DNA of 64,000 bases from Nanobdellota archaeon (GTDB lineage: Archaea > Nanobdellota > Nanobdellia > Pacearchaeales > GW2011-AR1). Position 1 is the stretch's first letter. Each line of letters opens with the position of its first letter. A program made the translations under genes and the position numbers. Positions 17,286-32,795 of this stretch are shown here, piece after piece. The notes under the pieces were generated by a model. That model did not search any database. It had not been told where the DNA came from and worked only from the letters and a program-made list of their open reading frames with translations. Where the stretch lies: NCBI GenBank assembly GCA_030648155.1, contig JAUSIK010000002.1, forward strand, positions 17,205 to 81,204, in the 5' to 3' direction.

Positions 17286-17672
17286 ATGGTAGATCAATCA
17301 AATACAGGTGAAGCGTACAGCTTTTCAAATACAGGTGAAGCGTACAGCTTTTTTTATTGCAATGCTTCAAAAAGTGAAATATTAGAGGAGTTTCCAAGAG
17401 CCAGAAGATTAGCTCTAACGCCTGAAAATCTAGAATTAATACTAATAGAGGGGATTAATCCAGATATATTTGAAGATGAAAAATTAAAAAGAATAGCCTA
17501 TGAAAATTTAAAAATGGGAAGAAATTATACAATGGTGGCCGTTTTGCCAGGTGCACCAAATGAAAAAGCTTATACAGAATTAGGAGATATCTATAATTGC
17601 TTATATGCATCACCAATAGGGGATAAATTCTATAAAAACGGGGATTGGTTTCCCGCAGAAATAGTCTATTGA
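17286..17672 (+). CDS. Hypothetical small protein, paralog of 17680..17994; N-terminus contains a perfect 27-nt tandem duplication
   Basis: AYSFFYCNASKSEILEE...LELILIEGIN aligns with AYYIFDFPASKTEINER...LELTLMEGKN of the next ORF. SNTGEAYSF is encoded twice. Confidence 0.5.
   Translation: MVDQSNTGEAYSFSNTGEAYSFFYCNASKSEILEEFPRARRLALTPENLELILIEGINPDIFEDEKLKRIAYENLKMGRNYTMVAVLPGAPNEKAYTELGDIYNCLYASPIGDKFYKNGDWFPAEIVY
17299..17352 (+). repeat. Perfect tandem duplication, 2 x 27 nt
   Basis: caaatacaggtgaagcgtacagctttt occurs at 17299-17325 and again at 17326-17352. It is in frame (9 aa). Confidence 0.9.
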
Positions 17673-20329: not shown

Positions 20330-20779
20330 ATGCCAATATTCAAAAAGAGGTCTCCAGAACTTATAGATCTTTCAGCATTACAAAAAAAAGGCACTCTTCA
20401 GAGATCCCAAAAAATAGCAAAATCCCATTCTAAATCTCCATTAAATCAAGATGATGTAATTGATCTTACTATGTTTAATAAATCATCACAAGATTCAATT
20501 TCAATGCCACAATTAGAACCAACAGGTTCTTCACCTTCAGACTCCCCATTTTCATCGCCTTCCTCCCCATTAGGAGATTTTCTTTCAAATTTGGCTTCAG
20601 TGAATGCCGTATCAGAAACTTCCATCCCCCAGTCATCTTCATTATCCTCTAGCCAAGTTCAATCTAAAGAATCCATCCATGAGGTTCAAGCATTAAAGAA
20701 TAAACTTGAAGATATAGAATTTAAGTTAGATACTTTCATCACCAGGCTCCAAAAACTTGAAGAAAAGTTAGGAAAGTAA
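20330..20779 (+). CDS. Hypothetical Ser/Pro-rich protein with C-terminal coiled coil
   Basis: 149 aa with a low-complexity S/P middle. The C-terminal EVQALKNKLEDIEFKLDTFITRLQKLEEKLGK has a heptad-like pattern. Confidence 0.45.
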   Translation: MPIFKKRSPELIDLSALQKKGTLQRSQKIAKSHSKSPLNQDDVIDLTMFNKSSQDSISMPQLEPTGSSPSDSPFSSPSSPLGDFLSNLASVNAVSETSIPQSSSLSSSQVQSKESIHEVQALKNKLEDIEFKLDTFITRLQKLEEKLGK

Positions 20780-20810: not shown

Positions 20811-21449
20811 TCATACATTATTTCCCCCTTCACTATACTTTCTTAAAACATTTTCCAGTCCAGTTTTCAATTCTTCATTTTTAGATCTATAACCAATTAT
20901 TTCCTTAACATTACATATCCCACCATAATTCTTACTAATTGCCAAGCTTAAACTGTTTTTTCCCATTTCTTTCAATTTTCGAGAAGTGGGAAATTCCCCC
21001 CCATTTTCTCTTATCGCACCCAACATTTCTCTTTTAAAATTCTCAAAATTATTCCAATAATTTTTTTTCCTAAATTTTTTTGGAAAAGGAAATTTCTTCA
21101 ACCACTTTTCTTTTCCCACACCGTCTCCTCTATATTCCATGTTACTTCCCCGGTAATACCAACTCCTTTCATCCTTATCTTCACTTTTAATTAAACTTGT
21201 AACGTTTCTTTCATTATATCCATTTTCAATTCCATATTCATACCATTCCCTAAATGTTAAGCAGAAGCCTACATTTCTAATGGTTTTAATTTGACTTAAT
21301 AAACAAATTTCTGCCATTTTATGATATAAACCAGGGTCTTTTTTTTGTAATTCTCCTCTTGTTATATCCTTGCCATAAAGTTTATTTTTATATTTCAATA
21401 TTTCATCAGGGCTCATGGAAGTTAAAAATCCTCGTGGTCTTTTCATCAT
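20811..21449 (-). CDS. Hypothetical protein carrying one copy of the YHGG-type repeat
   Basis: The C-terminal NYWNNFENFKREMLGAIRENGGEFPTSRKLKEMGKNSLSLAISKNYGGICNVKEIIGY (about 20889-21062) is one unit of the repeat that builds genes 24911-32192. The gene is divergent from the SNF2 gene. Confidence 0.65.
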   Translation of the reverse strand: MMKRPRGFLTSMSPDEILKYKNKLYGKDITRGELQKKDPGLYHKMAEICLLSQIKTIRNVGFCLTFREWYEYGIENGYNERNVTSLIKSEDKDERSWYYRGSNMEYRGDGVGKEKWLKKFPFPKKFRKKNYWNNFENFKREMLGAIRENGGEFPTSRKLKEMGKNSLSLAISKNYGGICNVKEIIGYRSKNEELKTGLENVLRKYSEGGNNV

Positions 21450-21575
21450 TTTTTCAATTTAATAATGCTTTTAAACATTACTATTTGTAACTAAATAATA
21501 GCAACATAGCAAAGATTTATATATTATTTTACAGCTCAATTTAAATGAAATATACTAGAATTCATACATTTTTAA

Positions 21576-21588
21576 GTATTATAAAGTG
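21576..21588 (+). promoter_or_regulatory. TATA-like box of SNF2-led operon
   Basis: gtattataaagtg is centred ~30 nt upstream of ATG 21612. Confidence 0.4.
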
Positions 21589-21611
21589 ATAGAATTTTAG
21601 AGTCAAGAAAC

Positions 21612-24600
21612 ATGAGAACCACATTCGATGATTTACTTTCCGAAGAAATTAGGAACGGTCAACAGGATTTACGCAAGTATTTGAAAAAAGGTCAATCTTC
21701 CCTTTATCTTACCTTAGAAGATGCAAGAAAAAACGGAGTAGATGAAAAGGTTATTCAAAATGCAGAAGAAAAAGGAATGATCACTGGAGATCTTTATCTT
21801 ACTTATGAAGGAGCTAAGAGAATTTATGACAAACTCAAAGCAGACCTTACACAGAATGAATCGGAAATTATAGATCACTTTGATCATATTAGAGATGCTG
21901 ATCTAATTGCCAATTATATTTTCTGTGTTCATCCAGAAGTTAGAGAAAGAGTAGGAAACACGGATGGACTTTACAAAGTAGTTCTAAATGTTGGGACAAA
22001 GAAAAAGAGAATACAACCAGTTAGAGAAAAATCAGAGAAAGAAGATAGTGGGGGTTTATCTTCTCATTTAGAAGAATTAATCGGAAATATACCTCGTGAA
22101 GAATATAAAGGAGATAAGGAATATCAAAGAAGATTAAGGATTCTTTTAGTAAAGAAAGCAGAAAGAGATATCTTTCCACAATTTAAGGAAAATAGAGAAA
22201 AAGCGTTTGATTTTGTAAGGAAGAAAATAAAAGAGGAAAAAAACAAAAATATAAAAGATATCTATCAAGAAATTCAAAAGACCTATAAAGCCTATGATAA
22301 TATAAGGGTTTTGGGGGTAAATGAGGAATTTCGTGATCCAGAAACAGGGGAAAAAGGAGTTTTGCCATCACTCCACCAGAATATAGCTATCTATCATCTT
22401 TTAAAAGAGAAAAAATTCGGTGTCTTTGATGGTTGCGGTACAGGAAAAACCGCAATAGCCACGCTAGCACAACCCCTCATTCAAGAAGCAATGGAAGAAG
22501 ATGGGAGAGAGTTCAAAAGAACAGTAATAGTATGTCCAAATAATGGAAAAAAAGCTTGGAAAAAAGGATTTCTAGGAAATATTGATCAGCGGTATTTAGA
22601 TTTGGATAGAGTTAAAGAAGAGGATGTTATTGTAATCAATGGTGGAAGAAAAGATGAGTCTTTTCTAAAAGAATTAGAAGATAAAAAGTGGATTGTAGTT
22701 AATTATGAACAGTTAATAACAAGAACGGATGATGGTAGACTATTCGTTGATGCACTAATCGATTTGGGAGTTGATTATTCTATATTTGATGAAGCACATC
22801 ATATCAAAAGTCAAAGAACCTTAACAAAGTCAGGAAAACCTACGTGCAGTGCAGCTGCACAAAAACTTGCGCATTCTTCTGAATATCTATGTCTCTTAAC
22901 TGGTTCACCTATTTCTAATAATATGGATGATTTTGCAGTTTTATATCACGTCCTAAATCCAAATCACTGCCCCGAACCCAAAAAATTTATAGAACTCTAT
23001 GAAGAAAATCCCCGTATTTTGTATACCTTCTTCAATGAAAAAAGTATTAGAAGAACATCACAAGATATTAACAAAAATCTAAAAATTGACGAAAAAAATG
23101 TAGATCTTTCTATTGACCCTATTCAAAGGCAGATTTATGAGCATATTGTTGAATTTAGAGCGAAAGATTGGTTGATGCAAGCAAGAAAAGCACTTTTAGA
23201 TCCTCGTCTAGTAGACCCATCTATACTCCAGAGTCTGGGCGTGCTTGGAAAGTTAAATTTTGATAATTCAGTTAAATATAAAAAACTTGAAGAACTTTTA
23301 GGTGAGGAAAAAGGCCCAATATCTAAAAAAGAAAATTTTATCATATATTCCAGTATCTTTAGAGAAGGCGTTACTCAAAAAGGGCATGAAAAAATAAGAG
23401 AAAAATATGCGCGAATGGGCTTGACAAAAGAATATCAACGCTTACAGCTAGATCATCCACTTAATGAAGTCCTCGAAGAAAGACTTTCCAAAAAATTCAA
23501 AAGACATGTAAAAATTGGGGTAATTGATGGTACAATTATAGATATTGAAGAAAGAGAAAAGATAGTTGATCGTCTTGGAAAAGATTTAGATGGAATAATC
23601 TGTACGACTGAAACAGGAGGAGAAAGTCTTGATTTTACCCAAGCTAACTGGGCATATTTTGTAGATAAAGATTACAACCCTAAAACTGAAGAACAAGCTG
23701 TGGCACGTATTGCTCGTAAGGGTCAACATAAGAAGGTAAATATTTCCCATTTAATGATTCTTGGTACTCTTGAAGAACAGCTTGAAAATTATGTAGAGAA
23801 AAAGATTATAATTAATAGAACAGCAATGGATGGACATCCTTTAACCCAACCAGAAATTGAAATTCTTGAAGATACTGAAGGAAAAAAATTTGTAGAGCTA
23901 ATCAGAAAGGGCCTTGGAGGGAAATCTATAAACACGTTTGAAGTTGAAGCTAAAGATTTAGGTGATTTCGAGTTAAATAAACGCAGATATATATCAAGAA
24001 AAAGTTCTGCTTTTTATGTTCCTGGAGATGAAACTACAGATGCCCAAGTATTGATGCAATGGATTGGAAGAGATCCGATTGGATGTTGGAAGGATCCTAC
24101 TTTTGTTGATCTATATATGAAAACCTTGCCAAACTTATCAGTGCCTGTAGTTCACCGTGCAAAAATATTAGATCTAGCATCAAGAGCATTAAATGGAAGC
24201 ATTCAGTTTCCAAAAACCATTATTTCTGAAGGATCAGGTCCGTCTTTGCTTTATAGTAATTATCAAAATTTAGGGCCACTATTGGAATCGTTTGGTTTGA
24301 ATATACCAACAATTTTTGATAGAGATACTTCTGCCTTAATGCTGAAACAAGGAAAAAACAATAATAAAATATTGGGAGATATGACAGGGAAAAATAGTAA
24401 GGTTCCGACTAGTTCTTTCCAAATGGTAGACAATGCTTCAATATCTTTATTAAAAAATACCTCGGAAGTTAAAGAATCTCTTTTAGAAGCTCATCGTATC
24501 TTAAAACCTAATGGATTAATTGGATTGACAGTTGAAGGTAAAAAGTTCTTTGATGGTTCTCTTAAAGGAAAAGACTTTTATACTGGTTTAGAAGGGCTAG

Positions 24601-24905
24601 GTTTTGAATTGATCACAGACAAAAATGTAGGTTTTAATATTGGAAGAGGACTTTTCCAAAGGATCAAACAAGAGAAAGGAGAACATTATGCAGAATCATA
24701 TGCAAGAAAACTTTCCCAAACCTATTACATTTTAGCGAGAAAAAAAGATGATTTTGCTGAAGTAAATGCGGAAAATTTTTGGTTTGAAACTCTTGCTCCA
24801 GAAGAAAATGGCGATCAAGTTCGAGATCCTTCTGAAACCAGAAGTATTATCAAAGTAAGATCAAGAGCAAGAAGAAAAGGAGGAAGAGCTAAAAAGGTAG
24901 TTTAA
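21612..24905 (+). CDS. SNF2-family ATPase fused to C-terminal class-I SAM-methyltransferase-like domain
   Basis: 1097 aa. Motif I DGCGTGKT (22428-22451), motif II DEAHHIKS (22788-22811), motif III LLTGSPISNN, motifs V/VI ETGGESLDF...DKDYNPKTEEQAVARIARKGQ. The C-terminal region (~24200-24620) carries IISEGSGPS, DRD and EAHRILKPNGLIGL, typical of Methyltransf_11/25-like folds. No NPPY/DPPY motif was seen. Confidence 0.85.
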   Translation: MRTTFDDLLSEEIRNGQQDLRKYLKKGQSSLYLTLEDARKNGVDEKVIQNAEEKGMITGDLYLTYEGAKRIYDKLKADLTQNESEIIDHFDHIRDADLIANYIFCVHPEVRERVGNTDGLYKVVLNVGTKKKRIQPVREKSEKEDSGGLSSHLEELIGNIPREEYKGDKEYQRRLRILLVKKAERDIFPQFKENREKAFDFVRKKIKEEKNKNIKDIYQEIQKTYKAYDNIRVLGVNEEFRDPETGEKGVLPSLHQNIAIYHLLKEKKFGVFDGCGTGKTAIATLAQPLIQEAMEEDGREFKRTVIVCPNNGKKAWKKGFLGNIDQRYLDLDRVKEEDVIVINGGRKDESFLKELEDKKWIVVNYEQLITRTDDGRLFVDALIDLGVDYSIFDEAHHIKSQRTLTKSGKPTCSAAAQKLAHSSEYLCLLTGSPISNNMDDFAVLYHVLNPNHCPEPKKFIELYEENPRILYTFFNEKSIRRTSQDINKNLKIDEKNVDLSIDPIQRQIYEHIVEFRAKDWLMQARKALLDPRLVDPSILQSLGVLGKLNFDNSVKYKKLEELLGEEKGPISKKENFIIYSSIFREGVTQKGHEKIREKYARMGLTKEYQRLQLDHPLNEVLEERLSKKFKRHVKIGVIDGTIIDIEEREKIVDRLGKDLDGIICTTETGGESLDFTQANWAYFVDKDYNPKTEEQAVARIARKGQHKKVNISHLMILGTLEEQLENYVEKKIIINRTAMDGHPLTQPEIEILEDTEGKKFVELIRKGLGGKSINTFEVEAKDLGDFELNKRRYISRKSSAFYVPGDETTDAQVLMQWIGRDPIGCWKDPTFVDLYMKTLPNLSVPVVHRAKILDLASRALNGSIQFPKTIISEGSGPSLLYSNYQNLGPLLESFGLNIPTIFDRDTSALMLKQGKNNNKILGDMTGKNSKVPTSSFQMVDNASISLLKNTSEVKESLLEAHRILKPNGLIGLTVEGKKFFDGSLKGKDFYTGLEGLGFELITDKNVGFNIGRGLFQRIKQEKGEHYAESYARKLSQTYYILARKKDDFAEVNAENFWFETLAPEENGDQVRDPSETRSIIKVRSRARRKGGRAKKVV

Positions 24906-24910
24906 ACAAA

Positions 24911-25582
24911 ATGAAAAACAAACCAAGAGGATATTGGCAAGATATTAATAATGTATTTTCAGAGACACAAAAATTTTTAGAAAAACATCCGGAATATGAA
25001 ACAATTCCAGGCCATGATGCCCTTATTAAATTAGGATATAGCAATTTGAGTCATGCAATTAATAGATATCACGGAGGTTTCTACAAGTTCAGAGTCAGAA
25101 TAGGAGGTAAAGCAAGATATAATTATGGTAGTTGGAAAAATTTAGAATTCACATTAAATGAAGCGAAAAGATGTATTCAAGAATTGGAAGTTTCCACGCT
25201 TCCAAATAGTTTAGAATTATTAAAACTTGGATACTCTCACTTAGCACACAGTATTCAAAGATATCACGGCGGTATTAGAAATATAAGGGAAAAATTAGGA
25301 GAAAGTCAAAAAATAAGAAAACATGGATTATGGAAAGACATTGAATATACTATTCAAGAAACAATATCTTTCTTTAGCAAACACCCAGAGTTTACTACTC
25401 TTCCATCTGCCGATAAGCTAAAAAGTCTTGGACATGGATACTTGGCCTCGGCAATTTGTCGTAATCATGGAGGTATGGACAAATTTAGGAATATACTCTC
25501 ACAACATCAAGGTGTTCTAACTCAAAAAGAAAGATTAGAAAATTTATTACAAAATTATGTTGGGAAAGAAAATGAAGAATAA
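24911..25582 (+). CDS. YHGG-repeat protein P1 (3 repeat units)
   Basis: Starts 5 nt after the SNF2 stop. Three ~65-aa units, e.g. RGYWQDINNVFSETQKFLEKHPEYETIPGHDALIKLGYSNLSHAINRYHGGFYKFRVRIG. Tail is ERLENLLQNYVGKENEE. Confidence 0.8.
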   Translation: MKNKPRGYWQDINNVFSETQKFLEKHPEYETIPGHDALIKLGYSNLSHAINRYHGGFYKFRVRIGGKARYNYGSWKNLEFTLNEAKRCIQELEVSTLPNSLELLKLGYSHLAHSIQRYHGGIRNIREKLGESQKIRKHGLWKDIEYTIQETISFFSKHPEFTTLPSADKLKSLGHGYLASAICRNHGGMDKFRNILSQHQGVLTQKERLENLLQNYVGKENEE

Positions 25583-27269
25583 AACTCAATCCATAAATCT
25601 CGAAAAAATTTTACAGGCATATGCTAATGGCACTACTCCAGATGGTCTTGAAATAGATAATACCATAAGAAAACCCATGGGCTATTGGAGAGATTTTCAA
25701 CATGTAAAAACTACCTTAGAAGAGCTAGAAAAAATATTAGGGCATTTCCCAAATCAGCGAGAGATGTCTGAAAAAGGGTATACAAGTTTACCTAGTGCAT
25801 TAAATAAGTATCATGGGGGACTTAATAAGGTAGCAGAAAGCTTGGGAAAATTAACACAACAACGAGCGAGAGGGTATTGGAAACCGAGTTTAGTAAAAAG
25901 TCTCTGTCAAAATTTCGCTGAAGAATATGGTCATTTTCCTTCCAATAAAGAGCTTCATAATAGAGATGATAAATATAAGGGACTGATGTCCGGAATCAAT
26001 AAATATGGAGGAATAGGGAGGATAAAGCGACTTCTTAAAATAGAGCCTGGTAAAAAACCAAATGATTATTGGAGTGAAGCCAGAGTTTTAACTGAAGCAA
26101 GGAAAATTGTTAGGAAGCTTGGAACTTTACCAACGCAAAAACAGCTCATAAATTTAGGATATAGTAATTTCGTAGGCGCTGTTGCAAATTACTCCAGTTT
26201 TATAGAAATTCGGAGGACATTGGGACTAGAACTTAATAAAGTTGAAGATGGATATTGGACAGAGAAAAAAATACTTTCAGAGTGCAAAAAACTTGTCGAA
26301 AGATTAGGTGATTTACCTACAAAAGACGGTCTCCAGGATTTAAAACTCGGTGCACTTGCAGGTCAAATTGAGAAGCAGGGAGGATATCCTTATTTTCGAG
26401 AAAAATTAGGATTAACATTAAGGAAGAGACAAAATCGTTATTGGAGTAAAGATAACACCTATGCAAAGGCCCGTGAACTTTATGAAAAGTTTGGAACATT
26501 ACCTTCGTGGAATAAATTAGAAGAAATGCAATTAGGGACTTTACCGAATGCTGCAAGGGAACATTTTGGAGGGTTAGTTAAATTAAGAAATCTTCTTCAA
26601 GAAGAATTTGGAGATGTTCAAGAAGATCCATTAAAAGATATGAAATATTTGCAGGAGGAAATAAAAAAAGTTCAAGAGAAACATAAACTCAAAAAATTTC
26701 CAGGATATCAAACTCTCAATAGACTTGGATATAGTCAAATTATTTCTGCAATCAAACGCTATCACGGTGGTTCTAACAATGTTCGAGAAGGAGCAGGAGA
26801 AAAAGCAGTATCTCCTAACGGAACCTGGCAAGATCCAAAATTCGTTTTGAGCGAGGCTAAAAAATTAATGAAGAAACATGGTTGGAAATCTTGGCCTGCT
26901 GAGGGAATTCTTAGAAAATATAAGTATACTATGATACCAAATGCTATTCGAGCATGTTATGGAAGTATCGCTCAGTTTAGAGTGGAATTAGGAGAAGAAC
27001 CTCTGAGAACAGTTCCAGGAAAATGGAAAGACTTGGAATACACTTTAACAGAAGCAAGAAAAGCAATGGAAGAGATAGGATACACAGAACTTCCTCCACA
27101 AAAAGTTCTTGCAAATCATGGGTATCAAGGATTATCTGCAGCGATTTCCATTTATTATGGCGGGTTTCCAGCTTTCCGTGATATACTCAATCAACATTTA
27201 GGTAATGCAACAAAGAAAGTACAGCTTGAAGGTTTGTTAAGGGACTATGTAAGGAGGAAAAATGCTTAA
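25572..27269 (+). CDS. YHGG-repeat protein P2 (8 repeat units)
   Basis: ATG 25572 (MKNKTQS) is preferred over track start 25557 because the same GAAAATGAAGAATAA junction starts P4. Head is INLEKILQAYANGT; eight units follow, some degenerate. Tail is QLEGLLRDYVRRKNA. Confidence 0.75.
   Translation: MKNKTQSINLEKILQAYANGTTPDGLEIDNTIRKPMGYWRDFQHVKTTLEELEKILGHFPNQREMSEKGYTSLPSALNKYHGGLNKVAESLGKLTQQRARGYWKPSLVKSLCQNFAEEYGHFPSNKELHNRDDKYKGLMSGINKYGGIGRIKRLLKIEPGKKPNDYWSEARVLTEARKIVRKLGTLPTQKQLINLGYSNFVGAVANYSSFIEIRRTLGLELNKVEDGYWTEKKILSECKKLVERLGDLPTKDGLQDLKLGALAGQIEKQGGYPYFREKLGLTLRKRQNRYWSKDNTYAKARELYEKFGTLPSWNKLEEMQLGTLPNAAREHFGGLVKLRNLLQEEFGDVQEDPLKDMKYLQEEIKKVQEKHKLKKFPGYQTLNRLGYSQIISAIKRYHGGSNNVREGAGEKAVSPNGTWQDPKFVLSEAKKLMKKHGWKSWPAEGILRKYKYTMIPNAIRACYGSIAQFRVELGEEPLRTVPGKWKDLEYTLTEARKAMEEIGYTELPPQKVLANHGYQGLSAAISIYYGGFPAFRDILNQHLGNATKKVQLEGLLRDYVRRKNA
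27177..27240 (+). repeat. 64-nt tract identical to 29369-29432
   Basis: cgtgatatactcaatcaacatttaggtaatgcaacaaagaaagtacagcttgaaggtttgttaa is present at the 3' ends of both P2 and P4. Confidence 0.9.
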
Positions 27270-28407
27270 ACAAAAACTAAGGCTTGAAAAACTTTTAACT
27301 TCCTATGTAGATGGAACTTCTTTTGATACTGAAGAATTTTGGAGAAGACCTAGGGGATATTGGCAAAACGAAAAAAATGTAATTCAAGAAGCTAAGAGAA
27401 TTATGAAAGATCTAAAAGTGAAAAATCTTCCTTCTTTTATAGAGCTTTCTCGTTTAGGTTTTAGAGGCCTTGCTAATGCAATTCAAAGATATTACGGCTT
27501 TACCAATTTTAGAATGAGATTAGGTGAAAAAAGTCAAAGATGTGAATGGGGGCTTTGGAAAGATGAAAATTATGCCGTACAGCAGGCACTCGATTTTATG
27601 AAAAAAAATAAATTTAATATTCTACCCAGTGGCCAGGTGCTTTGTAGATATGGTAGGTCTGACCTTTCTAGTGTCATATCAAAATATCACGGAGGCTTTT
27701 ATAAGTTTAGAGCAAAATTAGGTGAACCTAAAAAAATAAGAGAGATGGGTGTATGGAAGAGTTTAAAATATACTAAAGATCAAGCTCGCGAGATTCTTCA
27801 GAAACATCAACTGAAAAAATTACCAGGAGGATCCCAACTTAACGAAATGGGATATTCAAGTTTCGTTGTTTCAGTAAATAAATATCACGGAGGTCTTCCA
27901 AGAATAAGGAGATTGTTAGGAGAGAAACCAGAACATAGTTATGGGATAATGAAGAATATTGAATATTGTCTAAAGCAAGCAAGGCGATTGATACAAAAAG
28001 AAGGTTTGAAGAGGTTACCTAGTCGAAAAGGGCTTGCCAAGCTAGGATATTCTTCTCTATCCTCGGCGATTTCTCTCTACCATGGTGGTTTCTTTAATTT
28101 CAGGAAACTTTTAGGAGAAGATCCAATAGTGGAAGCTCGCGATTCATGGAAGAGTTTGGAGTTTACTTTAGAAAAAGCAAAGGAGTTTTTAGAGGAAAAT
28201 CTAGAATATGAAACGCTTCCAGGGGATTGGACTCTACGCAGCCTTGGATATAATTCATTAAGGCAGTCCATACATAAATATCATGGTGGATTTAATGTTT
28301 TCAGAAAAAGATTTAATAGATATGTAAGATTACAACCTCTATCAAAGAAAGGAGAACATCTCACTTCATTATTGGAAGATTATGTAGAAGGAGAAAATGA
28401 AGAATAA
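27262..28407 (+). CDS. YHGG-repeat protein P3 (5 repeat units)
   Basis: 8-nt overlap with P2 (AAAAATGCTTAA), with AGGAGG 4 nt upstream of the ATG. Colinear paralog of P5. Tail is HLTSLLEDYVEGENEE. Confidence 0.8.
   Translation: MLKQKLRLEKLLTSYVDGTSFDTEEFWRRPRGYWQNEKNVIQEAKRIMKDLKVKNLPSFIELSRLGFRGLANAIQRYYGFTNFRMRLGEKSQRCEWGLWKDENYAVQQALDFMKKNKFNILPSGQVLCRYGRSDLSSVISKYHGGFYKFRAKLGEPKKIREMGVWKSLKYTKDQAREILQKHQLKKLPGGSQLNEMGYSSFVVSVNKYHGGLPRIRRLLGEKPEHSYGIMKNIEYCLKQARRLIQKEGLKRLPSRKGLAKLGYSSLSSAISLYHGGFFNFRKLLGEDPIVEARDSWKSLEFTLEKAKEFLEENLEYETLPGDWTLRSLGYNSLRQSIHKYHGGFNVFRKRFNRYVRLQPLSKKGEHLTSLLEDYVEGENEE
27748..27930 (+). repeat. ~180-nt tract ~93% identical to 29877-30059
   Basis: Encodes GVWKSLKYTKDQAREILQKHQLKKLPGGSQL(N/S)EMGYSSFVVSVNKYHGGLPRIRRLLGEK in both P3 and P5. 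Confidence 0.85.
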
Positions 28408-29461
28408 AAGACCTTTTGGATATTGGAAAAATCGAGAAAATATAATTAAGGAGCTGAAAAGAGTTATAAGAAAGATTAATCATTTTCCAAGTGGCCATAA
28501 TTTAAGAAAATTAGGAGAATACGCCCTTGTCCAAGGTCTTAGGAAATATCATAATGAAAGTCTAAACTATTTCAGGGTAGAAATGGGGTATGAAACTGTC
28601 GAGATGAAACCATCTGGCTATTGGAAAAGTCTAGACAATGCTTTATACGAAACTAGAAAGTTCATGAGAAGATACAATTATAAAACTCTGCCCAATCAAG
28701 AAGAACTTAAAAATTTAGGATTTTCAAGCCTTGTAAATTCAATTCATCAATATCACGGAGGGTTCAGAAAGTTTAGAAAAGAGATGGGCCAACCTTCTGA
28801 TATAAAACCTAAAGGATATTGGAATAATTGGAAAAATGCAGAGAAAGTCTTAAAAAGATTAATTAGAGAAACAGGAAATTTTCCAACACAAAAAGTGTTA
28901 CAAAATCTCAAATATAGCTCCTTAGCAAATGCCATTACTAACGTTCATGGTGGCACTAATAATGTTAGAAAAAGACTTGGTTATGAAGTTGTTAAAAGAA
29001 ATAATGGGGTACTAAAGAATATTGATGTTGTAAAAAAAGAAATATATAGGATAATAAAAGAACATCCCGAGCTTAGAGGAAATTTTCCAACTACAAATTG
29101 GATGAAGGACAATGGTCAAGGATCATTATACATTGCTATCCAAAAATATCACGGAGGCTATAAGAATTTTCTTGAATTAATGGGCTTCGAACAGAAACAA
29201 GTTGAGAGCGGGAAATGGAAAGATTTGGAATTTACTATTAAAAGATATATTAAGATTATGAATGAACATAAGTTTACCGATTTTCCAGGAGCTTTTACGC
29301 TCAATAAAATAGGAGAATCTTCCCTTGGAGCGGCGATTTGTAAATATCACGGAGGTTTTCCAGTATTTCGTGATATACTCAATCAACATTTAGGTAATGC
29401 AACAAAGAAAGTACAGCTTGAAGGTTTGTTAAATAGTTATGTAGGGGGAAAAAATGATTAA
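28397..29461 (+). CDS. YHGG-repeat protein P4 (5 repeat units)
   Basis: 11-nt overlap with P3 (GAAAATGAAGAATAA). Tail is QLEGLLNSYVGGKND. Confidence 0.8.
   Translation: MKNKRPFGYWKNRENIIKELKRVIRKINHFPSGHNLRKLGEYALVQGLRKYHNESLNYFRVEMGYETVEMKPSGYWKSLDNALYETRKFMRRYNYKTLPNQEELKNLGFSSLVNSIHQYHGGFRKFRKEMGQPSDIKPKGYWNNWKNAEKVLKRLIRETGNFPTQKVLQNLKYSSLANAITNVHGGTNNVRKRLGYEVVKRNNGVLKNIDVVKKEIYRIIKEHPELRGNFPTTNWMKDNGQGSLYIAIQKYHGGYKNFLELMGFEQKQVESGKWKDLEFTIKRYIKIMNEHKFTDFPGAFTLNKIGESSLGAAICKYHGGFPVFRDILNQHLGNATKKVQLEGLLNSYVGGKND
29369..29432 (+). repeat. 64-nt tract identical to 27177-27240
   Basis: See 27177-27240. Confidence 0.9.
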
Positions 29462-30731
29462 ATATAAAAAGAGGCCAAATGGTTACTGGAAAAAAGAAAA
29501 AAATGCAATCCAAGAAGCCAAGAAAATTATGAGAAAATTAAAAGTAAGAAGGCTTCCTTCCCAAACAGAACTTAATAACTTAGGTTTTTCATATTTTGTC
29601 GCTGCTGTTTCTCAGCATCACGGAGGTTTTACTGATTTTAGGATAAAATTAGGCCAAAAACCAAAGAGAAATAAATATGGGCTTTGGAAAGATGAGAACT
29701 ATACCTTAACACAAGCACGATCTTTTCTAGAAGATCATGAACTTAATAGCTTACCTAGCCAACAGGAGTTAGGTAGGTATGGAAGATCAGATCTCTCTAC
29801 AGCAATTGCTCTCTATCACGGAGGCTTTAGAAGATTTAGGGCAAAGCTCGGCCAATCTCAAAGACAAAAAGAACATGGTGTATGGAAGAGTTTGAAATAT
29901 ACTAAAGATCAGGCTCGCGAGATTCTTCAGAAACATCAACTGAAAAAATTACCAGGAGGATCTCAACTTAGCGAAATGGGATACTCTAGTTTCGTTGTTT
30001 CAGTAAATAAATACCATGGAGGTCTTCCAAGAATAAGGCGTCTCTTAGGCGAAAAATCAGGACGTAATGCCCCTGGAACATGGAGAAACATAAAATATTG
30101 TTTACAACAAGCTAGAAGGTTAACAAGAAAACATAATTTAGAAAAACTACCATGTCATGAGGATCTTACGATGTTAGGATATCCCAGTCTTGCAGGAGCA
30201 ATTGAAAAATATCACGGAGGATATCATGTTTTTAGGAGTCTTTTAGGGGAAGAAGAAAATAGAAGGAAAACTGGACTTTTAGAAGATAGAGATTATGTTA
30301 TACAACAACTTAAAAAATTAATGAAAGAACATGGGATAGGCACTATACCTAGTGCATATCAACTCCGAAAATGGGGCCATACCAGTCTAGCAGCAGCAGT
30401 ACATAATCACCATGGAGGTTTTAATGCTTTAAGAGAGTCTCTAGGAGAAAGACCAAGAAAAGAAGCTGATGGTGCTTGGAAAAGTTTAGACTTTACTTTG
30501 GAAAAAGCAAAAGAATTTTTACAAGAACATTCAGTATATGGGACACTTCCAGGTGGCTGGACCCTACATCGACTTGGTTATAATAGTTTAATTAGAGCTA
30601 TCCAAAAATATCACGGAGGATTCAATTATTTTAGAGAAAAATTTAATGAATATATGGGAATTAAATCTCAATCAAGAAGAGAACACCTCACTTCATTATT
30701 GGAAGATTATATTGGTGAAGAAAATAATTAA
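29454..30731 (+). CDS. YHGG-repeat protein P5 (6 repeat units)
   Basis: 8-nt overlap with P4 (AAAAATGATTAA). Equals the P3 architecture plus one extra unit. Tail is HLTSLLEDYIGEENN. Confidence 0.8.
   Translation: MIKYKKRPNGYWKKEKNAIQEAKKIMRKLKVRRLPSQTELNNLGFSYFVAAVSQHHGGFTDFRIKLGQKPKRNKYGLWKDENYTLTQARSFLEDHELNSLPSQQELGRYGRSDLSTAIALYHGGFRRFRAKLGQSQRQKEHGVWKSLKYTKDQAREILQKHQLKKLPGGSQLSEMGYSSFVVSVNKYHGGLPRIRRLLGEKSGRNAPGTWRNIKYCLQQARRLTRKHNLEKLPCHEDLTMLGYPSLAGAIEKYHGGYHVFRSLLGEEENRRKTGLLEDRDYVIQQLKKLMKEHGIGTIPSAYQLRKWGHTSLAAAVHNHHGGFNALRESLGERPRKEADGAWKSLDFTLEKAKEFLQEHSVYGTLPGGWTLHRLGYNSLIRAIQKYHGGFNYFREKFNEYMGIKSQSRREHLTSLLEDYIGEENN
29877..30059 (+). repeat. ~180-nt tract ~93% identical to 27748-27930
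   Basis: See 27748-27930. Confidence 0.85.
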
Positions 30732-30776
30732 AACACGGGTAAGTAACCATATTAAAAAATATTATTCAAATACAGA

Positions 30777-32192
30777 ATGAAAGTTAAATCAAGACCTCGT
30801 AATTATTGGCATAATTGGGATAATTTTAGTAGAGAACTTTGCGAAGTAATTGATAATATAGGGCATTTTCCAAGTTCTACAGAATTATATAAATCAGGAA
30901 AAGCCGTGCTATGGGCTATAATGAGGGATCATCATGGTGGAGTAAATACTGTCAGAGAAAAATTTGGATACAGTAGAATTGAAAAACCGAAACAATACTC
31001 CCAATTAATGTTTGAAACTGAACAACAATTGAAGGAAAATCTAAAGGATTATATTGAAAGAGAATATGAAAAGGGTTCAGTGCATACGGTTACAGAAAAA
31101 TTAAATCAAAAACTTCAAGGCTTTTCGCTTAAGAGTCCGACAGTTTGGACATGGTTTAAAGTTCTAGGAATTAAAGCAAGAAAAGGATATGAAACCAATT
31201 CTCTTCAGACATGGGAAGAAAAGCCCTCAAAAGAACAACTAACACAATGGCATCTTAAAGAGGGAAAATCTGCTTATGAATTAAGTAAAAAATTTGGAGT
31301 CAGCCGTAATGCTGTTTTGAACCTTCTTCATACATCAGGTATAACTGTCCGTAATAAGAGAAATATTTATGATAATAAAGAAGCACGAAAGCACGCAATG
31401 GATGAACTTTTAAATGCTTGTAACAAGAGGCCTGAAGAAATAACTAGCCCAGATTTTGTTAAAGCACAAAAACAAGATGGAACATGTTATAGTGGAGTTC
31501 TTGCATGGTATCAACGAAAAAACTTAGGAAGTACAAAAAAATCCATAGATTTCCTTCTTGAAGATCTTTATGGAATTCCTTTAGAAGAAAGAAATCCAAA
31601 GTTAAAAAGAGGCTTGTACGAAAATAAGCAATACCGTAAAAAATTTGTTGATGAATTCCTGTCAAAAATTGACAAGCCTATTTATGAATTGAAACCTAAT
31701 GATTTTGCCAAAATAAAACAAGTCAATGGTCATTCTTATATTGGAATTATTACTTGGTACGCGGACGCGCACGAATGCAGTCATATACAAGCACTTGAAA
31801 TCCTCGCTCAAGATTTATTTGATAAAAATTTATCCCTATTAAGCAAAAGGATAACAATTGATAGATATAATAAAAAATCTTTCAGAAAAAAGGTTGTACA
31901 CCAACTTCTTGAATACCTTGGTAAAAACCCGGAAGAACTTTCTACAGATGATTTCGAAAAAAACAAACAAGAAGACGGCTCATCCTTTTTAAGGATCCTA
32001 CTATGGTACAAAAGAAAATACCAGTGTAAAATAGGAGAAGCAAGAGATAAGCTTGTAGAAGATATATTTAGCATAAATATGCCAGAAAAGAGAAAACTAA
32101 AAAAATTAAATCAGAAACCACAAAATCAAGTTAATAATTTTTTGAAAGATGACCTTGAAAATATATTAATTAAATATATTAAAGATAAGTAA
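30777..32192 (+). CDS. Composite protein P6: one YHGG unit + HTH-like segment + 3 copies of a second ~83-aa repeat
   Basis: N-terminal RNYWHNWDNFSRELCEVIDNIGHFPSSTELYKSGKAVLWAIMRDHHGGVNTVREKFGY. HTH-like KSAYELSKKFGVSRNAVLNLLHTSGI (~31227-31352). Three units of Y(D/E/N)NKxxRKxxxxxxL...PEE(I/L)(T/S)xxDFxKxKQxDGxxYxG(V/I)(L/I)xWY... (~31368-32075). Tail is DLENILIKYIKDK. A possible own TATA (ttaaaaaatatta) lies upstream. Confidence 0.75.
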   Translation: MKVKSRPRNYWHNWDNFSRELCEVIDNIGHFPSSTELYKSGKAVLWAIMRDHHGGVNTVREKFGYSRIEKPKQYSQLMFETEQQLKENLKDYIEREYEKGSVHTVTEKLNQKLQGFSLKSPTVWTWFKVLGIKARKGYETNSLQTWEEKPSKEQLTQWHLKEGKSAYELSKKFGVSRNAVLNLLHTSGITVRNKRNIYDNKEARKHAMDELLNACNKRPEEITSPDFVKAQKQDGTCYSGVLAWYQRKNLGSTKKSIDFLLEDLYGIPLEERNPKLKRGLYENKQYRKKFVDEFLSKIDKPIYELKPNDFAKIKQVNGHSYIGIITWYADAHECSHIQALEILAQDLFDKNLSLLSKRITIDRYNKKSFRKKVVHQLLEYLGKNPEELSTDDFEKNKQEDGSSFLRILLWYKRKYQCKIGEARDKLVEDIFSINMPEKRKLKKLNQKPQNQVNNFLKDDLENILIKYIKDK

Positions 32193-32252: not shown

Positions 32253-32795
32253 ATGGGAAAAAAGCCAAAAATAGATTTAGATGCACGAGTAGAATCGTAT
32301 CGTAGCTCTGCAAATGATATTCTTAATAAAGAGTTTTTTGCTAGAAGAGCAGAAGTAGTAGCCAGAGAAATTTTAGGCATGACTATGGTTCGTGTTCTTC
32401 CTAATAAAAGTATTATTAGAGCAAGAATCCATGAAATTGCTGCTTACGAGGGCACTACAAATAAGACTGCAGATACAATTAGTTATCCTCCTGGAGTTTT
32501 AGGGATAAGTATGCACTATGGGAATAATCTTATAGACATTGGAACACACAAAAGTGATTCCCCTTCCTGTATAACTCTAATCAGCGGGCTTTTTTACACA
32601 GGAAAAGAGCCAAAATTAGTACAAGGGCCTGGAAGACTTTCTAAGGAATTAGGGATTACACAAGAGCATGATAAGATTCCTATTTATGATAATCAACAAT
32701 TTTGGATTGAGCGTAATACTCAATATGGAGAAGAAGTCAAGAAGAGAGAAAAATCTGGGCTTCCTGAAAATTGTTTAGGGTTTTTCTACATATAA
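32253..32795 (+). CDS. DNA-3-methyladenine glycosylase, AAG/MPG family (divergent)
   Basis: FFARRAEVVAREILGMTMVR, ARIHEIAAYEG and GPGRLSKELGI follow the FF.R..vA..LLGk.L / grIvEtEAY / GPG+L..alGI order of the Pur_DNA_glyco family. Confidence 0.6.
   Translation: MGKKPKIDLDARVESYRSSANDILNKEFFARRAEVVAREILGMTMVRVLPNKSIIRARIHEIAAYEGTTNKTADTISYPPGVLGISMHYGNNLIDIGTHKSDSPSCITLISGLFYTGKEPKLVQGPGRLSKELGITQEHDKIPIYDNQQFWIERNTQYGEEVKKREKSGLPENCLGFFYI

What the first reader, a model, noticed from the sequence alone, without database searches (positions are those of the whole stretch)
20811..32192. SNF2 ATPase-methyltransferase fusion leading a coupled array of six paralogous genes built from ~29 copies of an unassigned ~65-aa YHGG repeat
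Seen in sequence:
- Seven ORFs contain, by my count, ~29 copies of one 62-70 aa unit. Six are codirectional at 24911-32192; the seventh is the divergent gene 20811-21449.
- Approximate consensus: (K/R)xxGYW+xxENxxxEA+xxhxxxxxxxLP(S/T)xxxLxxLGYssLxxAIx+YHGGFxxFRxxLGE.
- Copy numbers are 3, 8, 5, 5, 6, 1 and 1.
- The six genes follow an SNF2-family ATPase directly (5-nt gap). That ATPase carries a class-I SAM-methyltransferase-like C-terminal domain. P1 to P5 overlap one another by 8 or 11 nt, so the block of ~10.6 kb reads as one operon.

Established knowledge: the SNF2 helicase motifs are unambiguous. The spacing W..E / G.hP(S/T) / aromatic-GG / basic..LG recalls short three-helix HTH-type repeats such as the Pfam homing-endonuclease-associated repeat (HNH_repeat, PF18780). 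I cannot place the YHGG signature in any characterised family.

Inference: a modular nucleic-acid-binding repeat array may work with a translocase/remodeller and a methyltransferase. Possible roles are anti-mobile-element defence, nucleoid organisation, or a selfish element. The combination is not one I recognise as a described system.
Basis: partly seen in the sequence, partly recalled or inferred. Interest (0 to 1): 0.88.

Follow-up and report, generated by a model that had tools for sequence, protein, structure and literature searches.

The report
Archaeal SNF2-methyltransferase with DNA-binding repeat arrays
A tiny symbiotic archaeon (DPANN group) carries a conserved, undescribed gene cluster: a DNA-motor/methyltransferase fusion, a run of paralogous proteins built from 29 copies of a helix-turn-helix-like repeat, and a DNA-glycosylase look-alike that has lost its catalytic residue. 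Together they look like a targeted DNA-marking machine whose function is unknown.

Summary
Seven ORFs hold exactly 29 copies (3, 8, 5, 5, 6, 1, 1) of a ~65-aa unit, and no copy lies elsewhere in the window. Six of the ORFs follow a 1097-aa SNF2 ATPase whose C-terminus is a class-I SAM methyltransferase fold.

The unit is not an orphan. It is a divergent, DPANN-specific branch of Pfam HNH_repeat (PF18780), itself an uncharacterised, presumed DNA-binding repeat.

- **Unit:** four helices with an HTH-like core. The proteins are basic (pI 9.4-10).
- **Linkage:** in 38 distinct loci from Woese-/Pace-/Nanoarchaeota, 26 of 28 with enough downstream sequence have 1-12 repeat genes directly after the SNF2-MTase gene.
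- **Fusions:** three distant proteins fuse 7-13 units, an SNF2 domain and (in two) a Methyltransf_8 domain in one chain.
a P6-type multi-HTH protein; a C-terminal tail helix (LxxLLxxY) shared by all seven proteins; and an adjacent MPG/AAG-like gene, found in 15 of 15 well-flanked loci, with Ala or Ser in place of the catalytic Glu in 23 of 23.

My best reading is that the repeat arrays target the SNF2-MTase to DNA and the dead glycosylase acts as a base reader. The biological role (defence, silencing or nucleoid remodelling) is unresolved. I found no description in the searchable literature and no match to known defence systems.

The parts
20811..21449 (-). P0: divergent 212-aa basic protein with one clear YHGG unit (nt 20877-21068) and the C-terminal tail LENVLRKYSEGG
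   Evidence: YHGG genes upstream of the SNF2 gene are also seen in L005, L010, L019, L022, L035 and L040.
21450..21611 (.). AT-rich divergent intergenic region between P0 and SNF2, containing TATA-like TTTATATA; putative archaeal promoter region
   Evidence: Read directly from the sequence. Promoter function is inferred, not tested.
21612..24905 (+). SNF2-family ATPase (1097 aa): conserved N-terminal domain of unknown function (res 1-250), SNF2 core (res ~255-745; GTGKT, DEAH) and C-terminal class-I MTase domain
24024..24761 (+). Methyltransferase domain of the SNF2 protein (res 805-1050): conserved motif I SEGSGPS, then DRD, MVDNxSISLL and LLEAxRILKPxG
24911..25582 (+). P1: 3 YHGG units plus tail
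25572..27269 (+). P2: 8 units (unit 2 degenerate), an N-terminal copy of the tail helix and a C-terminal tail. The longest ORF starts at 25557; the conserved start is 25572.
27262..28407 (+). P3: 5 units, an N-terminal tail-like helix and a C-terminal tail. In the AF2 model each unit forms 4 helices.
28397..29461 (+). P4: 5 units plus tail
29454..30731 (+). P5: 6 units plus tail. It is a collinear paralogue of P3; unit 3 is 92% identical between the two, other units 51-65%.
30777..32192 (+). P6: one YHGG unit (nt 30795-30983), a weak classical-HTH-like segment around res 151-204, three copies of a second ~80-aa repeat (res ~196-440) and the tail LENILIKYIKDK
32253..32795 (+). MPG/AAG-fold protein (180 aa) with Ala at the position of the catalytic Glu; a conserved flank of the cluster

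Best explanation
This is a chromosomal, lineage-specific (Woese-/Pace-/Nanoarchaeota) multi-protein DNA-targeting module. The basic P0-P6 proteins are arrays of tetrahelical, HTH-like units of the HNH_repeat superfamily, and I infer that they bind DNA. The most variable positions lie on the two HTH helices, so different units and paralogues would recognise different DNA features. I further infer that the shared C-terminal amphipathic helix (LxxLLxxY) docks every paralogue onto a common partner, most likely the SNF2-MTase, whose conserved N-terminal domain has no assigned function. The SNF2 motor would then translocate on or remodel the bound DNA, and its class-I (Methyltransf_8/11-like) methyltransferase domain would methylate a local substrate, either a base or a protein. 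The always-adjacent MPG/AAG-fold protein has lost the canonical general-base Glu, so it more likely binds a flipped or modified purine than excises it; that would make it a reader or a neo-functionalised enzyme. Shown here: the repeat anatomy, the domain identities, the gene linkage, the fusions and the loss of the catalytic residue. Inferred: DNA binding, docking through the tail, the methyl acceptor and the biological role. The role could be marking or silencing of particular DNA, either as defence against mobile elements or as chromosomal regulation.
For: - **Repeat:** 29 units, strongly significant.
- **Family size:** 2772 clusters at 50% identity, 787 of them with E<=1e-30.
- **Fold and HTH pattern:** AF2 gives four helices per unit, with pLDDT mostly 80-95 within units. 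The sequence LPSxxELxxxGYSSLxxAIxKY has the helix-turn(G)-helix pattern.
- **Charge:** pI 9.4-10.0.
- **Superfamily:** the units belong with the HNH_repeat module seen in homing endonucleases. One distant homologue carries HNH_3, and others carry several classical HTH domains.
- **Variable positions:** across 1311 units the scaffold positions are near-invariant. The highest entropies are at positions 29, 30, 33 (helix 2) and 41, 42, 45 (helix 3).
- **Linkage:** repeat genes lie directly downstream of the SNF2-MTase in 26 of 28 loci. All three reverse look-ups that started from a repeat protein landed next to an SNF2/helicase gene, with an MPG-like gene nearby in two of them.
- **Rosetta-stone fusions:** P0187, P0228 and P0274 fuse 13, 13 and 7 units to an SNF2 domain; P0228 and P0274 also carry Methyltransf_8 (37.9 and 39.3 bits against a cut-off of 27). 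L020 has unit-like inserts inside the ATPase.
- **Tail:** the motif is in the last 30 aa of 132 of 216 family proteins, against 70 of 3120 other 30-aa windows, and it is absent from the fused forms.
- **Translational coupling:** 8/11-nt overlaps with SD-like GGAG/GGGGG runs encoded in the tail codons.
- **MTase fold:**
- **MPG-like gene:** present in 15 of 15 loci with adequate flanks, in two different arrangements. The E125-equivalent residue is Ala in 22 of 23 and Ser in 1.
Against: - There is no experimental datum for any component.
- The five-unit model has a low pTM (0.46) and no significant PDB neighbour, so DNA binding rests on sequence pattern, charge and family context.
- The MTase resembles small-molecule and rRNA methyltransferases and lacks DNA-MTase motifs ((D/N/S)PP(Y/F), PCQ), so DNA may not be the substrate.
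- MPG adjacency was sampled within a single phylum and could partly reflect inherited synteny.
- The conserved Glu two residues upstream of the lost one (E123-equivalent) could conceivably rescue catalysis.
- One lineage (L002/L014/L041) lacks detectable YHGG genes right after the SNF2 gene.
- The fused variant (L047) has no MPG-like neighbour.
Confidence: 0.45

Rival explanations
1. It is an anti-virus or anti-plasmid defence system of the DISARM/BREX logic. The SNF2 motor and methyltransferase would discriminate self from foreign DNA, the fast-evolving repeat arrays would act as a repertoire of sensors for foreign DNA, and the MPG-like protein would be an effector or reader. This is a specific biological role for the same machine as in the best explanation.
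For: - SNF2 together with an MTase is a recurrent defence pairing.
- The number of array genes and units per locus varies widely (1-12 genes, 1-65 units), and the paralogues are mosaic.
- Some loci neighbour AbiEii, an integrase, VapBC or a transposase.
Against: - PADLOC and NCBIfam give only partial generic helicase-C matches, for example DrmD at 27.5 bits against a cut-off of 610.
- No nuclease or other effector domain was detected.
- Several loci sit among housekeeping genes (GluRS, SerRS, ribosomal proteins, thymidylate synthase).
- G+C composition matches the flanking sequence.
- No relative was found on viral contigs.
Confidence: 0.25
2. It is a housekeeping nucleoid or chromatin system. 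The abundant basic repeat proteins would coat or organise the chromosome, the SNF2 ATPase would remodel or strip them (as Mot1 and ISWI do to their targets), and the link to the MPG-like gene would reflect coupling to DNA repair or transcription.
For: - The cluster is chromosomal, and its SNF2 protein is ~42-57% identical among most full-length homologues found across Woese-/Pace-/Nanoarchaeota.
- It has housekeeping neighbours.
- The closest solved relatives of the ATPase are Rad26/CSB, Mot1, Rad54 and INO80.
- The proteins are basic.
Against: - Architectural proteins are usually small and few, not 3-15 long paralogues with unit-specific variation on the HTH face.
- This reading does not explain the fused methyltransferase or the loss of the glycosylase catalytic residue.
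Confidence: 0.18
3. It is an RNA-directed system. The RRP8-like methyltransferase would modify rRNA or another RNA, the ATPase would remodel an RNP, and the helical repeat arrays would bind RNA in the manner of PPR or PUF proteins.
For: The nearest named MTase family is Methyltransf_8/RRP8, an rRNA m1A methyltransferase family (the function of RRP8 is from my own knowledge).
Against: - Snf2-family motors are dsDNA translocases (established knowledge).
- The repeat's relatives occur in homing endonucleases and alongside classical DNA-binding HTH domains.
- The linked gene has a DNA-glycosylase fold.
Confidence: 0.07
4. It is a selfish or homing element, or the decayed remains of one giant repeat gene broken by frameshifts.
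For: The repeat family is named after its association with homing endonucleases, and the array genes overlap one another.
Against: - No nuclease, integrase or transposase lies in the block.
- The gene boundaries are conserved. Five-unit homologues from other genomes end at the same position with the same tail, and each junction carries its own ATG and an SD-like motif.
- The cluster keeps a conserved chromosomal context.
Confidence: 0.03

Closest known systems
Pfam PF18780 HNH_repeat (homing-endonuclease-associated repeat); newer Pfam PF26683 Tyr_recomb_halo_N also hits faintly
   Same: Both are tandem helical units with a similar pattern: a long first helix, then (G)x(L/F)P(S/T), then an aromatic-G-G/S turn, then a basic residue and LG. 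Whole-protein scores pass the PF18780 cut-off for P2 and for 10 of 10 tested homologues.
   Different: The unit here is 62-67 aa, against 54 positions in the model. It carries its own YHGG/GYW signature. Single units do not reach significance against PF18780. No endonuclease domain is attached. The proteins form multi-gene arrays tied to an SNF2-MTase and carry a family-specific C-terminal tail.
DISARM (DrmD SNF2 helicase + DrmMI/MII methyltransferase) and other SNF2-containing defence systems (Zorya ZorD, Dpd DpdE, BREX BrxH)
   Same: All combine an SNF2-family ATPase with a methyltransferase activity in one gene cluster.
   Different: The matches to the defence HMMs are only partial and generic. 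There is no DrmA/B/C or PLD nuclease. The MTase is not of a DNA-MTase type. No known defence system has repeat arrays or an MPG-like gene.
Eukaryotic remodeller/methylation circuits (e.g. KRAB zinc-finger arrays recruiting NuRD/CHD4 and DNMTs; DDM1/LSH with DNMTs; MBD readers). This is an analogy from my own knowledge, not homology.
   Same: The logic is similar: clustered, diversifying tandem-repeat DNA binders, an SNF2 motor, a methyl 'writer' and a base 'reader'.
   Different: Apart from the SNF2 core, the components are unrelated. Nothing about the substrate or the outcome is known here.
Human AAG/MPG alkyladenine DNA glycosylase (PF02245; PDB 1EWN, 3QI5)
   Same: The fold family matches clearly: 54.6 bits against Pfam and E=2e-15 for the profile against PDB.
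   Different: The general-base residue E125 is Ala in 22 of 23 cluster-linked homologues and Ser in 1. The segment holding H136 is deleted, and Y162 is not conserved. Invariant SC and near-invariant NC motifs have appeared instead.
RRP8/nucleomethylin (Methyltransf_8, PF05148; PDB 2ZFU)
   Same: It is the best PDB sequence-profile hit (E=2.7e-6). Fused relatives pass the PF05148 cut-off, and 9 of 17 orthologous domains hit it. Foldseek gives TM 0.58 normalised to the target.
   Different: The window protein itself is below the Pfam cut-offs. Foldseek ranks many generic class-I MTases higher. Here the domain is fused to an SNF2 motor, and its substrate is unknown.

Membership tests
HNH_repeat (PF18780) | Match to the family HMM at or above the gathering score (26 bits) | tested here: inconclusive
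   P2 scores 34.8 bits and P4 16.9 bits; P1, P3, P5, P6 and P0 give no hit. Single units: 2 of 29 match, best E=0.022. Ten of 10 homologues of P5 score 26-55.7 bits, but no single stretch is significant on its own.
HNH_repeat (PF18780) | Tandem helical repeat units | tested here: met
   29 units, each with 4 helices in the AF2 model.
HNH_repeat (PF18780) | Association with an HNH or other homing-endonuclease domain | tested here: not met
   No nuclease domain is found in any cluster protein. Only one distant homologue (P0107) carries HNH_3.
Snf2-family ATPase | SNF2-related N-lobe and Helicase_C lobe above the Pfam cut-offs; Walker A GTGKT and DEAH box | tested here: met
   SNF2-rel_dom scores 49.9 bits (cut-off 24.9) and Helicase_C 40.7 bits (cut-off 23.5). 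The motifs are conserved in 71 homologues. The closest PDB relatives are Rad26, Mot1, Rad54 and INO80.
Class-I SAM-dependent methyltransferase (Methyltransf_8/11-like) | Rossmann-like MTase fold with a glycine-rich motif I and an acidic residue after strand 2 | tested here: met
   The AF2 model has pLDDT 88 and pTM 0.82. Foldseek finds 1043 PDB hits at E<=1e-3, all of those listed being MTases or MTase-fold proteins. SEGSGPS and DRD are conserved.
Class-I SAM-dependent methyltransferase (Methyltransf_8/11-like) | Pfam family score above the cut-off for the window protein itself | tested here: not met
   PF08241 scores 15.2 bits against a cut-off of 21.2, and PF05148 gives no hit. Fourteen of 17 orthologous domains hit PF08241 and 9 of 17 hit PF05148 at E<=0.1.
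DNA methyltransferase (N6A/N4C or C5) | Catalytic motif IV, (D/N/S)PP(Y/F/W) or PCQ | tested here: not met
   Neither motif is present in the conserved C-terminal domain, by direct reading of the alignment.
DISARM | Full-length DrmD plus DrmA, DrmB and a DNA MTase or PLD partner | tested here: not met
   NCBIfam DrmD scores 27.5 bits against a cut-off of 610. PADLOC gives only partial helicase-C matches, and no other cluster protein hits any defence model convincingly.
MPG/AAG 3-methyladenine DNA glycosylase | PF02245 fold-family match | tested here: met
   54.6 bits against a cut-off of 27. The profile scores E=2e-15 against human AAG.
MPG/AAG 3-methyladenine DNA glycosylase | Catalytic general-base Glu (human E125 in the ETEAY motif) | tested here: not met
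   The aligned residue is Ala in 22 of 23 distinct cluster-linked homologues and Ser in 1. That E125 is essential is from my own knowledge of the AAG literature.
Single polycistronic operon | One transcript spanning SNF2 to P6 | not testable with these tools
   The only indirect support is the 5-nt gap, the 8/11-nt overlaps and the SD-like motifs. TATA-like elements lie before P6, the MPG-like gene and GluRS, so internal promoters are possible.

The most novel reading that the evidence does not exclude
The cluster is a prokaryotic 'programmable' epigenetic or immune machine. A genomically clustered, diversifying repertoire of modular HTH-repeat arrays would read DNA sequence through a per-unit code on helices 2 and 3. 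The arrays would recruit a single SNF2-methyltransferase 'writer/remodeller' through a common tail peptide. A catalytically dead AAG-fold protein would serve as 'reader' of the resulting modified purine. This would be a non-homologous analogue of the KZFP-NuRD-DNMT-MBD silencing circuits of animals, in genome-reduced DPANN archaea.
Probability: 0.15. Interest if true: 0.92.

Novelty: new variant of a known kind. Interest (0 to 1): 0.76.

Why it matters
Woese-, Pace- and Nanoarchaeota have very small genomes, yet they devote 10-25 kb to this block. Whatever it does is probably important to them. If the arrays are sequence-selective DNA binders with a unit-wise code, they would be a new modular DNA-recognition scaffold beside zinc fingers and TALEs. 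An SNF2 motor fused to a methyltransferase that is not of a DNA-MTase type, always next to an inactivated alkylpurine glycosylase, points to an unexplored nucleic-acid modification pathway in archaea. That pathway can be tested directly with recombinant proteins. The work also gives a function-linked context to an uncharacterised Pfam repeat (PF18780) that has more than 2700 sequence clusters in metagenomes.

Tried and rejected
- **Unit profile against PDB sequences:** only chance-level hits, to an SOD helix at E>=0.44.
- **Foldseek of the five-unit P3 model against PDB:** nothing better than E=1, and the hits were TPR-like noise. Against BFVD, one uncharacterised siphovirus protein scored E=5.6e-5, and giant-virus 'helicase-associated domain' proteins gave weak hits. 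This is suggestive only, because the inter-unit geometry of the model is unreliable (pTM 0.46).
- **N-terminal 250 aa of the SNF2 protein against PDB:** nothing.
- **Single-sequence C-terminal domain against PDB:** only E=0.62. The profile was needed.
- **Metagenome scan with the five-unit alignment A2:** it failed for lack of a conserved stretch, so I used the MTase-domain alignment instead.
- **Homologue search with the MPG-like protein:** only 3 near-identical hits. I took MPG-like sequences from the fetched loci instead.
- **Viral contig scan:** no relatives.
- **PADLOC:** no system-level match.
- **tRNA, Rfam and tandem-repeat scans of the window:** nothing relevant.
- **BLAST self-comparison of P6:** it did not detect the second repeat, which is visible only by eye.
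- **Literature searches:** the terms PF26683; PF18780/HNH_repeat; SNF2 + methyltransferase + Woese/Pacearchaeota; DPANN + SNF2; and Methyltransf_8/Tyr_recomb_halo_N returned no description of this cluster.
- **Ideas considered and dropped:**
  - A PIP-box reading of the tail. The ExxLxxY(V/A) spacing resembles QxxLxxFF, but the Gln and the double aromatic are missing and I had no way to test it.
  - A reading of the array as pseudogene fragments. See the rival explanations.

Full report
**1. What is in the sequence**

The ORF map matches the finding. A divergent gene, P0, lies at 20811-21449 on the minus strand. On the plus strand there is a 1097-aa ORF at 21612-24905, followed after 5 nt by six co-directional genes:

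| Gene | Coordinates |
|---|---|
| P1 | 24911-25582 |
| P2 | 25557/25572-27269 |
| P3 | 27262-28407 |
| P4 | 28397-29461 |
| P5 | 29454-30731 |
| P6 | 30777-32192 |

The P1/P2, P2/P3, P3/P4 and P4/P5 junctions overlap by 11, 8, 11 and 8 nt. They share a repeated junction sequence in which the last codons of the upstream gene encode a GGAG- or GGGGG-type Shine-Dalgarno-like run and the next ATG.

I built an HMM from nine obvious units and ran it on the six-frame translation of the whole 64-kb window. It finds 29 units distributed 3, 8, 5, 5, 6, 1, 1 in P1-P6 and P0. Twenty-eight have per-unit E-values from 1e-31 to 2e-4. One, P2 unit 2, is degenerate (E=2.4). Nothing else in the window scores better than E=0.36.

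**2. The repeat**

Each unit is 61-67 aa. The consensus over 1311 units from 216 family proteins is xGYWKDxENVxxELxxIIxEHxLGxLPSxxELxxxGYSSLxxAIxKYHGGFxxFRxxLG. An AlphaFold2 model of P3, built with 24 five-unit homologues as its alignment, gives four helices per unit of about 14, 6, 10 and 7 residues. Confidence is high within units (pLDDT mostly 80-95). The arrangement of units relative to one another is uncertain (pTM 0.46).

Helices 2 and 3, with the conserved Gly between them (ELxxxG-YSSLxxAIxKY), have the classic helix-turn-helix pattern. The proteins are strongly basic, with pI 9.4-10.0.

The scaffold positions are nearly invariant: G2, W4, P27, L32, G36, L40, A43, I44, Y47, H48, G49, G50, R55, L58 and G59. 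The most variable positions are 29, 30, 33 on helix 2 and 41, 42, 45 on helix 3. A domain whose HTH face is diversified would show this pattern.

Units within one protein are only 30-45% identical. P3 and P5 are collinear paralogues with 51-65% identity per unit, except unit 3 at 92%. The arrays are therefore old and position-specific, with some mosaic exchange between paralogues.

**3. Family assignment of the repeat**

In the local Pfam copy only P2 passes a family threshold, PF18780 HNH_repeat at 34.8 bits against a cut-off of 26. It does so by summing weak per-unit matches. Single units do not reach significance. However, all ten homologues of P5 that I tested pass the PF18780 cut-off, at 26-55.7 bits.

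Precomputed annotations also list PF26683, named Tyr_recomb_halo_N. That model is absent from the local copy, and all its hits are flagged 'faint'.

There is no solved structure by sequence or by fold. The only paper I found that mentions PF18780 lists it among repeat families without a structure.

I conclude that the YHGG unit is a divergent, lineage-specific branch of the HNH_repeat superfamily. That superfamily is presumed to bind DNA but has not been characterised experimentally.

The branch is large. The unit profile hits 2772 clusters at 50% identity in 1.84 billion representatives, 787 of them at E<=1e-30. Nearly all of the listed hits are multi-unit proteins of 280-1900 aa.

**4. The ATPase-methyltransferase**

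The central part of the 1097-aa protein is a bona fide Snf2-family ATPase (Pfam). Its closest solved relatives are Rad26/CSB, Mot1, Rad54 and INO80, all at modest scores, so it forms its own subfamily.

Seventy homologues, most of them ~42-57% identical over nearly the full length, come from Woese-, Pace- and Nanoarchaeota MAGs. A few carry odd bin labels. These homologues conserve the whole protein, including an unassigned N-terminal ~250 aa and the C-terminal domain.

Evidence for the C-terminal domain (res ~805-1050):

- It conserves SEGSGPS (motif I), DRD, MVDNxSISLL and LLEAxRILKPxG.
- Its profile hits the nucleomethylin/RRP8 methyltransferase 2zfu at E=2.7e-6.
- Its AF2 model (pLDDT 88, pTM 0.82) matches more than 1000 class-I MTases.
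- Fourteen of 17 orthologous domains hit Methyltransf_11 and 9 of 17 hit Methyltransf_8.
- It lacks the catalytic motifs of DNA N6A/N4C/C5 methyltransferases, so the methyl acceptor is unknown.

**5. Linkage outside this genome**

The contig is from a Nanoarchaeota MAG. Sixteen contig lengths are shared between the hit lists for P5 and for the SNF2 protein.

I fetched loci in three ways: by the SNF2 protein, by the MTase-domain alignment in GTDB genomes and in metagenomes, and by repeat proteins. I then scored all of them with my own HMMs.

- There are 38 distinct SNF2-MTase loci. Of the 28 with at least 1 kb of downstream sequence, 26 have YHGG genes directly downstream, ranging from 1 to 12 genes and 1 to 65 units.
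- One MAG has about 15 consecutive array genes over 18 kb (L023).
- The two exceptions belong to one lineage, in which a 279-aa P6-like HTH protein follows the SNF2 gene. In the fully sequenced example, L002, a 1512-aa HNH_repeat protein lies 5 kb away.
- All three look-ups that started from a repeat protein landed next to an SNF2/helicase gene.

Rosetta-stone fusions add independent support. P0187 (1576 aa), P0228 (1874 aa) and P0274 (1388 aa) carry 13, 13 and 7 N-terminal units followed by an SNF2 domain. P0228 and P0274 also have a C-terminal Methyltransf_8 domain above the Pfam cut-off. In L020 two unit-like segments are inserted inside the ATPase.

**6.

(a) P6 is a conserved family, found in at least 10 loci. 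It combines one YHGG unit with HTH-like segments and, in the window, three copies of a second ~80-aa repeat. In the window copy the HTH signal is weak; relatives carry clear classical HTH domains.

(b) All seven window proteins end in an amphipathic LxxLLxxY helix. P2 and P3 also carry a copy at the N-terminus.

- In the five-unit alignment, L367 and Y374 of the tail are invariant.
- Across the family the motif is in the last 30 residues of 132 of 216 proteins, against 70 of 3120 other 30-residue windows.
- It is missing from the covalently fused forms.
- This pattern would be expected if the tail mediates non-covalent attachment to the SNF2-MTase. That is an inference.

(c) The gene at 32253-32795 belongs to the MPG/AAG glycosylase fold family (54.6 bits).

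- A homologue flanks the cluster in 24 of 38 loci, and in 15 of 15 loci with at least 3 kb upstream and 6 kb downstream sequence.
- It appears in different arrangements: divergent 9-123 bp upstream of the SNF2 gene, beyond one or two upstream YHGG genes, or co-directional after the array. This argues for selected linkage rather than frozen synteny alone.
- In both profile and multiple alignments to human AAG, the general-base Glu (E125 of ETEAY) corresponds to Ala in 22 of 23 distinct sequences and to Ser in 1.
- The H136 segment is deleted and Y162 is not conserved. New invariant SC and near-invariant NC motifs appear.
- That E125 is essential for catalysis is from my own knowledge of the AAG literature.

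**7. Interpretation**

The following are shown: a conserved four-part cluster of SNF2-MTase, HNH_repeat-type arrays, a P6-type HTH protein and a degenerate MPG-like protein; translational coupling signals; and domain fusions.

The following are inferred. The arrays bind DNA and supply targeting or multivalent anchoring. The tail docks them to the SNF2-MTase. The motor remodels or translocates on DNA while the MTase marks a substrate. The MPG-like protein binds rather than excises a purine.

The biological role is open.

- **Defence:** the copy-number variability and some island-like neighbours fit. Against it, there is no match to known systems, no nuclease, no viral copies and many housekeeping neighbours.
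- **Nucleoid remodelling:** this fits the chromosomal conservation. It does not explain the MTase or the dead glycosylase.
- **RNA role:** suggested only by the RRP8 resemblance.
- **Selfish element or pseudogene:** rejected on the conserved gene boundaries and the absence of any nuclease.

**8. Novelty**

Each domain belongs to a known superfamily, so this is not a new fold or a new enzyme class. The combination and its architecture are new to me: a multi-gene array of tailed HTH-repeat paralogues, an SNF2 motor fused to an MTase that is not of a DNA-MTase type, and a catalytically altered AAG-fold protein. The cluster matches none of the systems I tested and appears in none of the papers I could search.

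I rate it a new variant of the known kind 'SNF2 ATPase plus methyltransferase DNA-targeting modules'. I give a 15% chance that it is a categorically new programmable writer/reader/remodeller system.

Noticed in passing
window 32253-32795; L001, L002, L005, L006, L013, L015, L017-L019, L021, L022, L024-L046 (MPG-like ORFs): The MPG/AAG-fold gene that always flanks the cluster has Ala (22 of 23) or Ser (1 of 23) at the position of the catalytic Glu125 of human AAG. It also lacks the H136 segment and has gained invariant SC and near-invariant NC motifs. It is probably not a canonical glycosylase.
   Followed up: yes
window 30777-32192 (P6), residues ~196-440: P6 contains three copies of a second repeat of about 80 aa, with the pattern (I/L/R)YxNKxxRKKxVxELLxxxxxxPxELxxxDFxKxKQxxGxSYxGIxxWY. 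They lie downstream of a weak HTH-like segment. The repeat is visible by eye but not detected by BLAST self-comparison. Homologues of this region occur in at least 10 loci.
   Followed up: partly
window 25544-25584, 27245-27280, 28369-28409, 29426-29466: The conserved C-terminal tail codons (…YV-G/E-G-E/K-N…) also encode an SD-like GGAG/GGGGG run and the ATG of the next gene. The protein tail and the translational-coupling signal are therefore superimposed on the same DNA.
   Followed up: partly
window 27742-27936 vs 29871-30065; 27138-27283 vs 29330-29475: Unit 3 of P3 and unit 3 of P5 are 92% identical at the protein level (91% over a 58-nt DNA repeat), while the other collinear units are 51-65% identical. 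The P2 and P4 C-terminal regions share 146 nt at 82% identity. This suggests gene conversion or unusually strong constraint on particular units.
   Followed up: partly
L023 1-18000 and L021 (same MAG, GCA_964358765.1): One Woesearchaeota MAG has about 15 consecutive array genes (at least 65 units, about 18 kb). They start right after the 3' end of the SNF2-MTase gene at a contig edge. Another contig of the same MAG ends inside the SNF2 gene, so the assembly probably broke within the cluster.
   Followed up: partly
L020 6980-11047: This SNF2-MTase orthologue (1356 aa) has two degenerate YHGG-like segments inserted in ATPase lobe 1, after motif I and after the DEVH box.
   Followed up: partly
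L047 4196-8362 (P0274); also P0187 and P0228: In these distant single-chain versions (units, SNF2 and, in P0274 and P0228, Methyltransf_8), the array carries no C-terminal tail. The L047 locus has no MPG-like gene and no other YHGG genes nearby, and its neighbours are all unannotated.
   Followed up: partly
window 32842-34497; L002 1-591: An archaeal-type GluRS gene lies next to the cluster both in the window and in a distant Woesearchaeota locus. This may be residual synteny.
   Followed up: no
BFVD hits to model mb875100a7d02: The P3 model weakly resembles giant-virus proteins annotated 'Helicase-associated domain' or 'Superfamily II helicase' (ranks 3, 4 and 12; E 0.07-1.6). This hints that the HA domain (PF03457-type) and HNH_repeat units may be related helicase-linked helical repeats.
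   Followed up: no
window 20330-20779: A 149-aa ORF just upstream of P0 is rich in Ser and Pro and of low complexity, with a C-terminal coiled-coil-like end. It has no Pfam hit and its function is unknown.
   Followed up: no
window 17298-17352: A perfect 27-nt tandem duplication (2 copies) lies at the 5' end of ORF 17286-17672.
   Followed up: no
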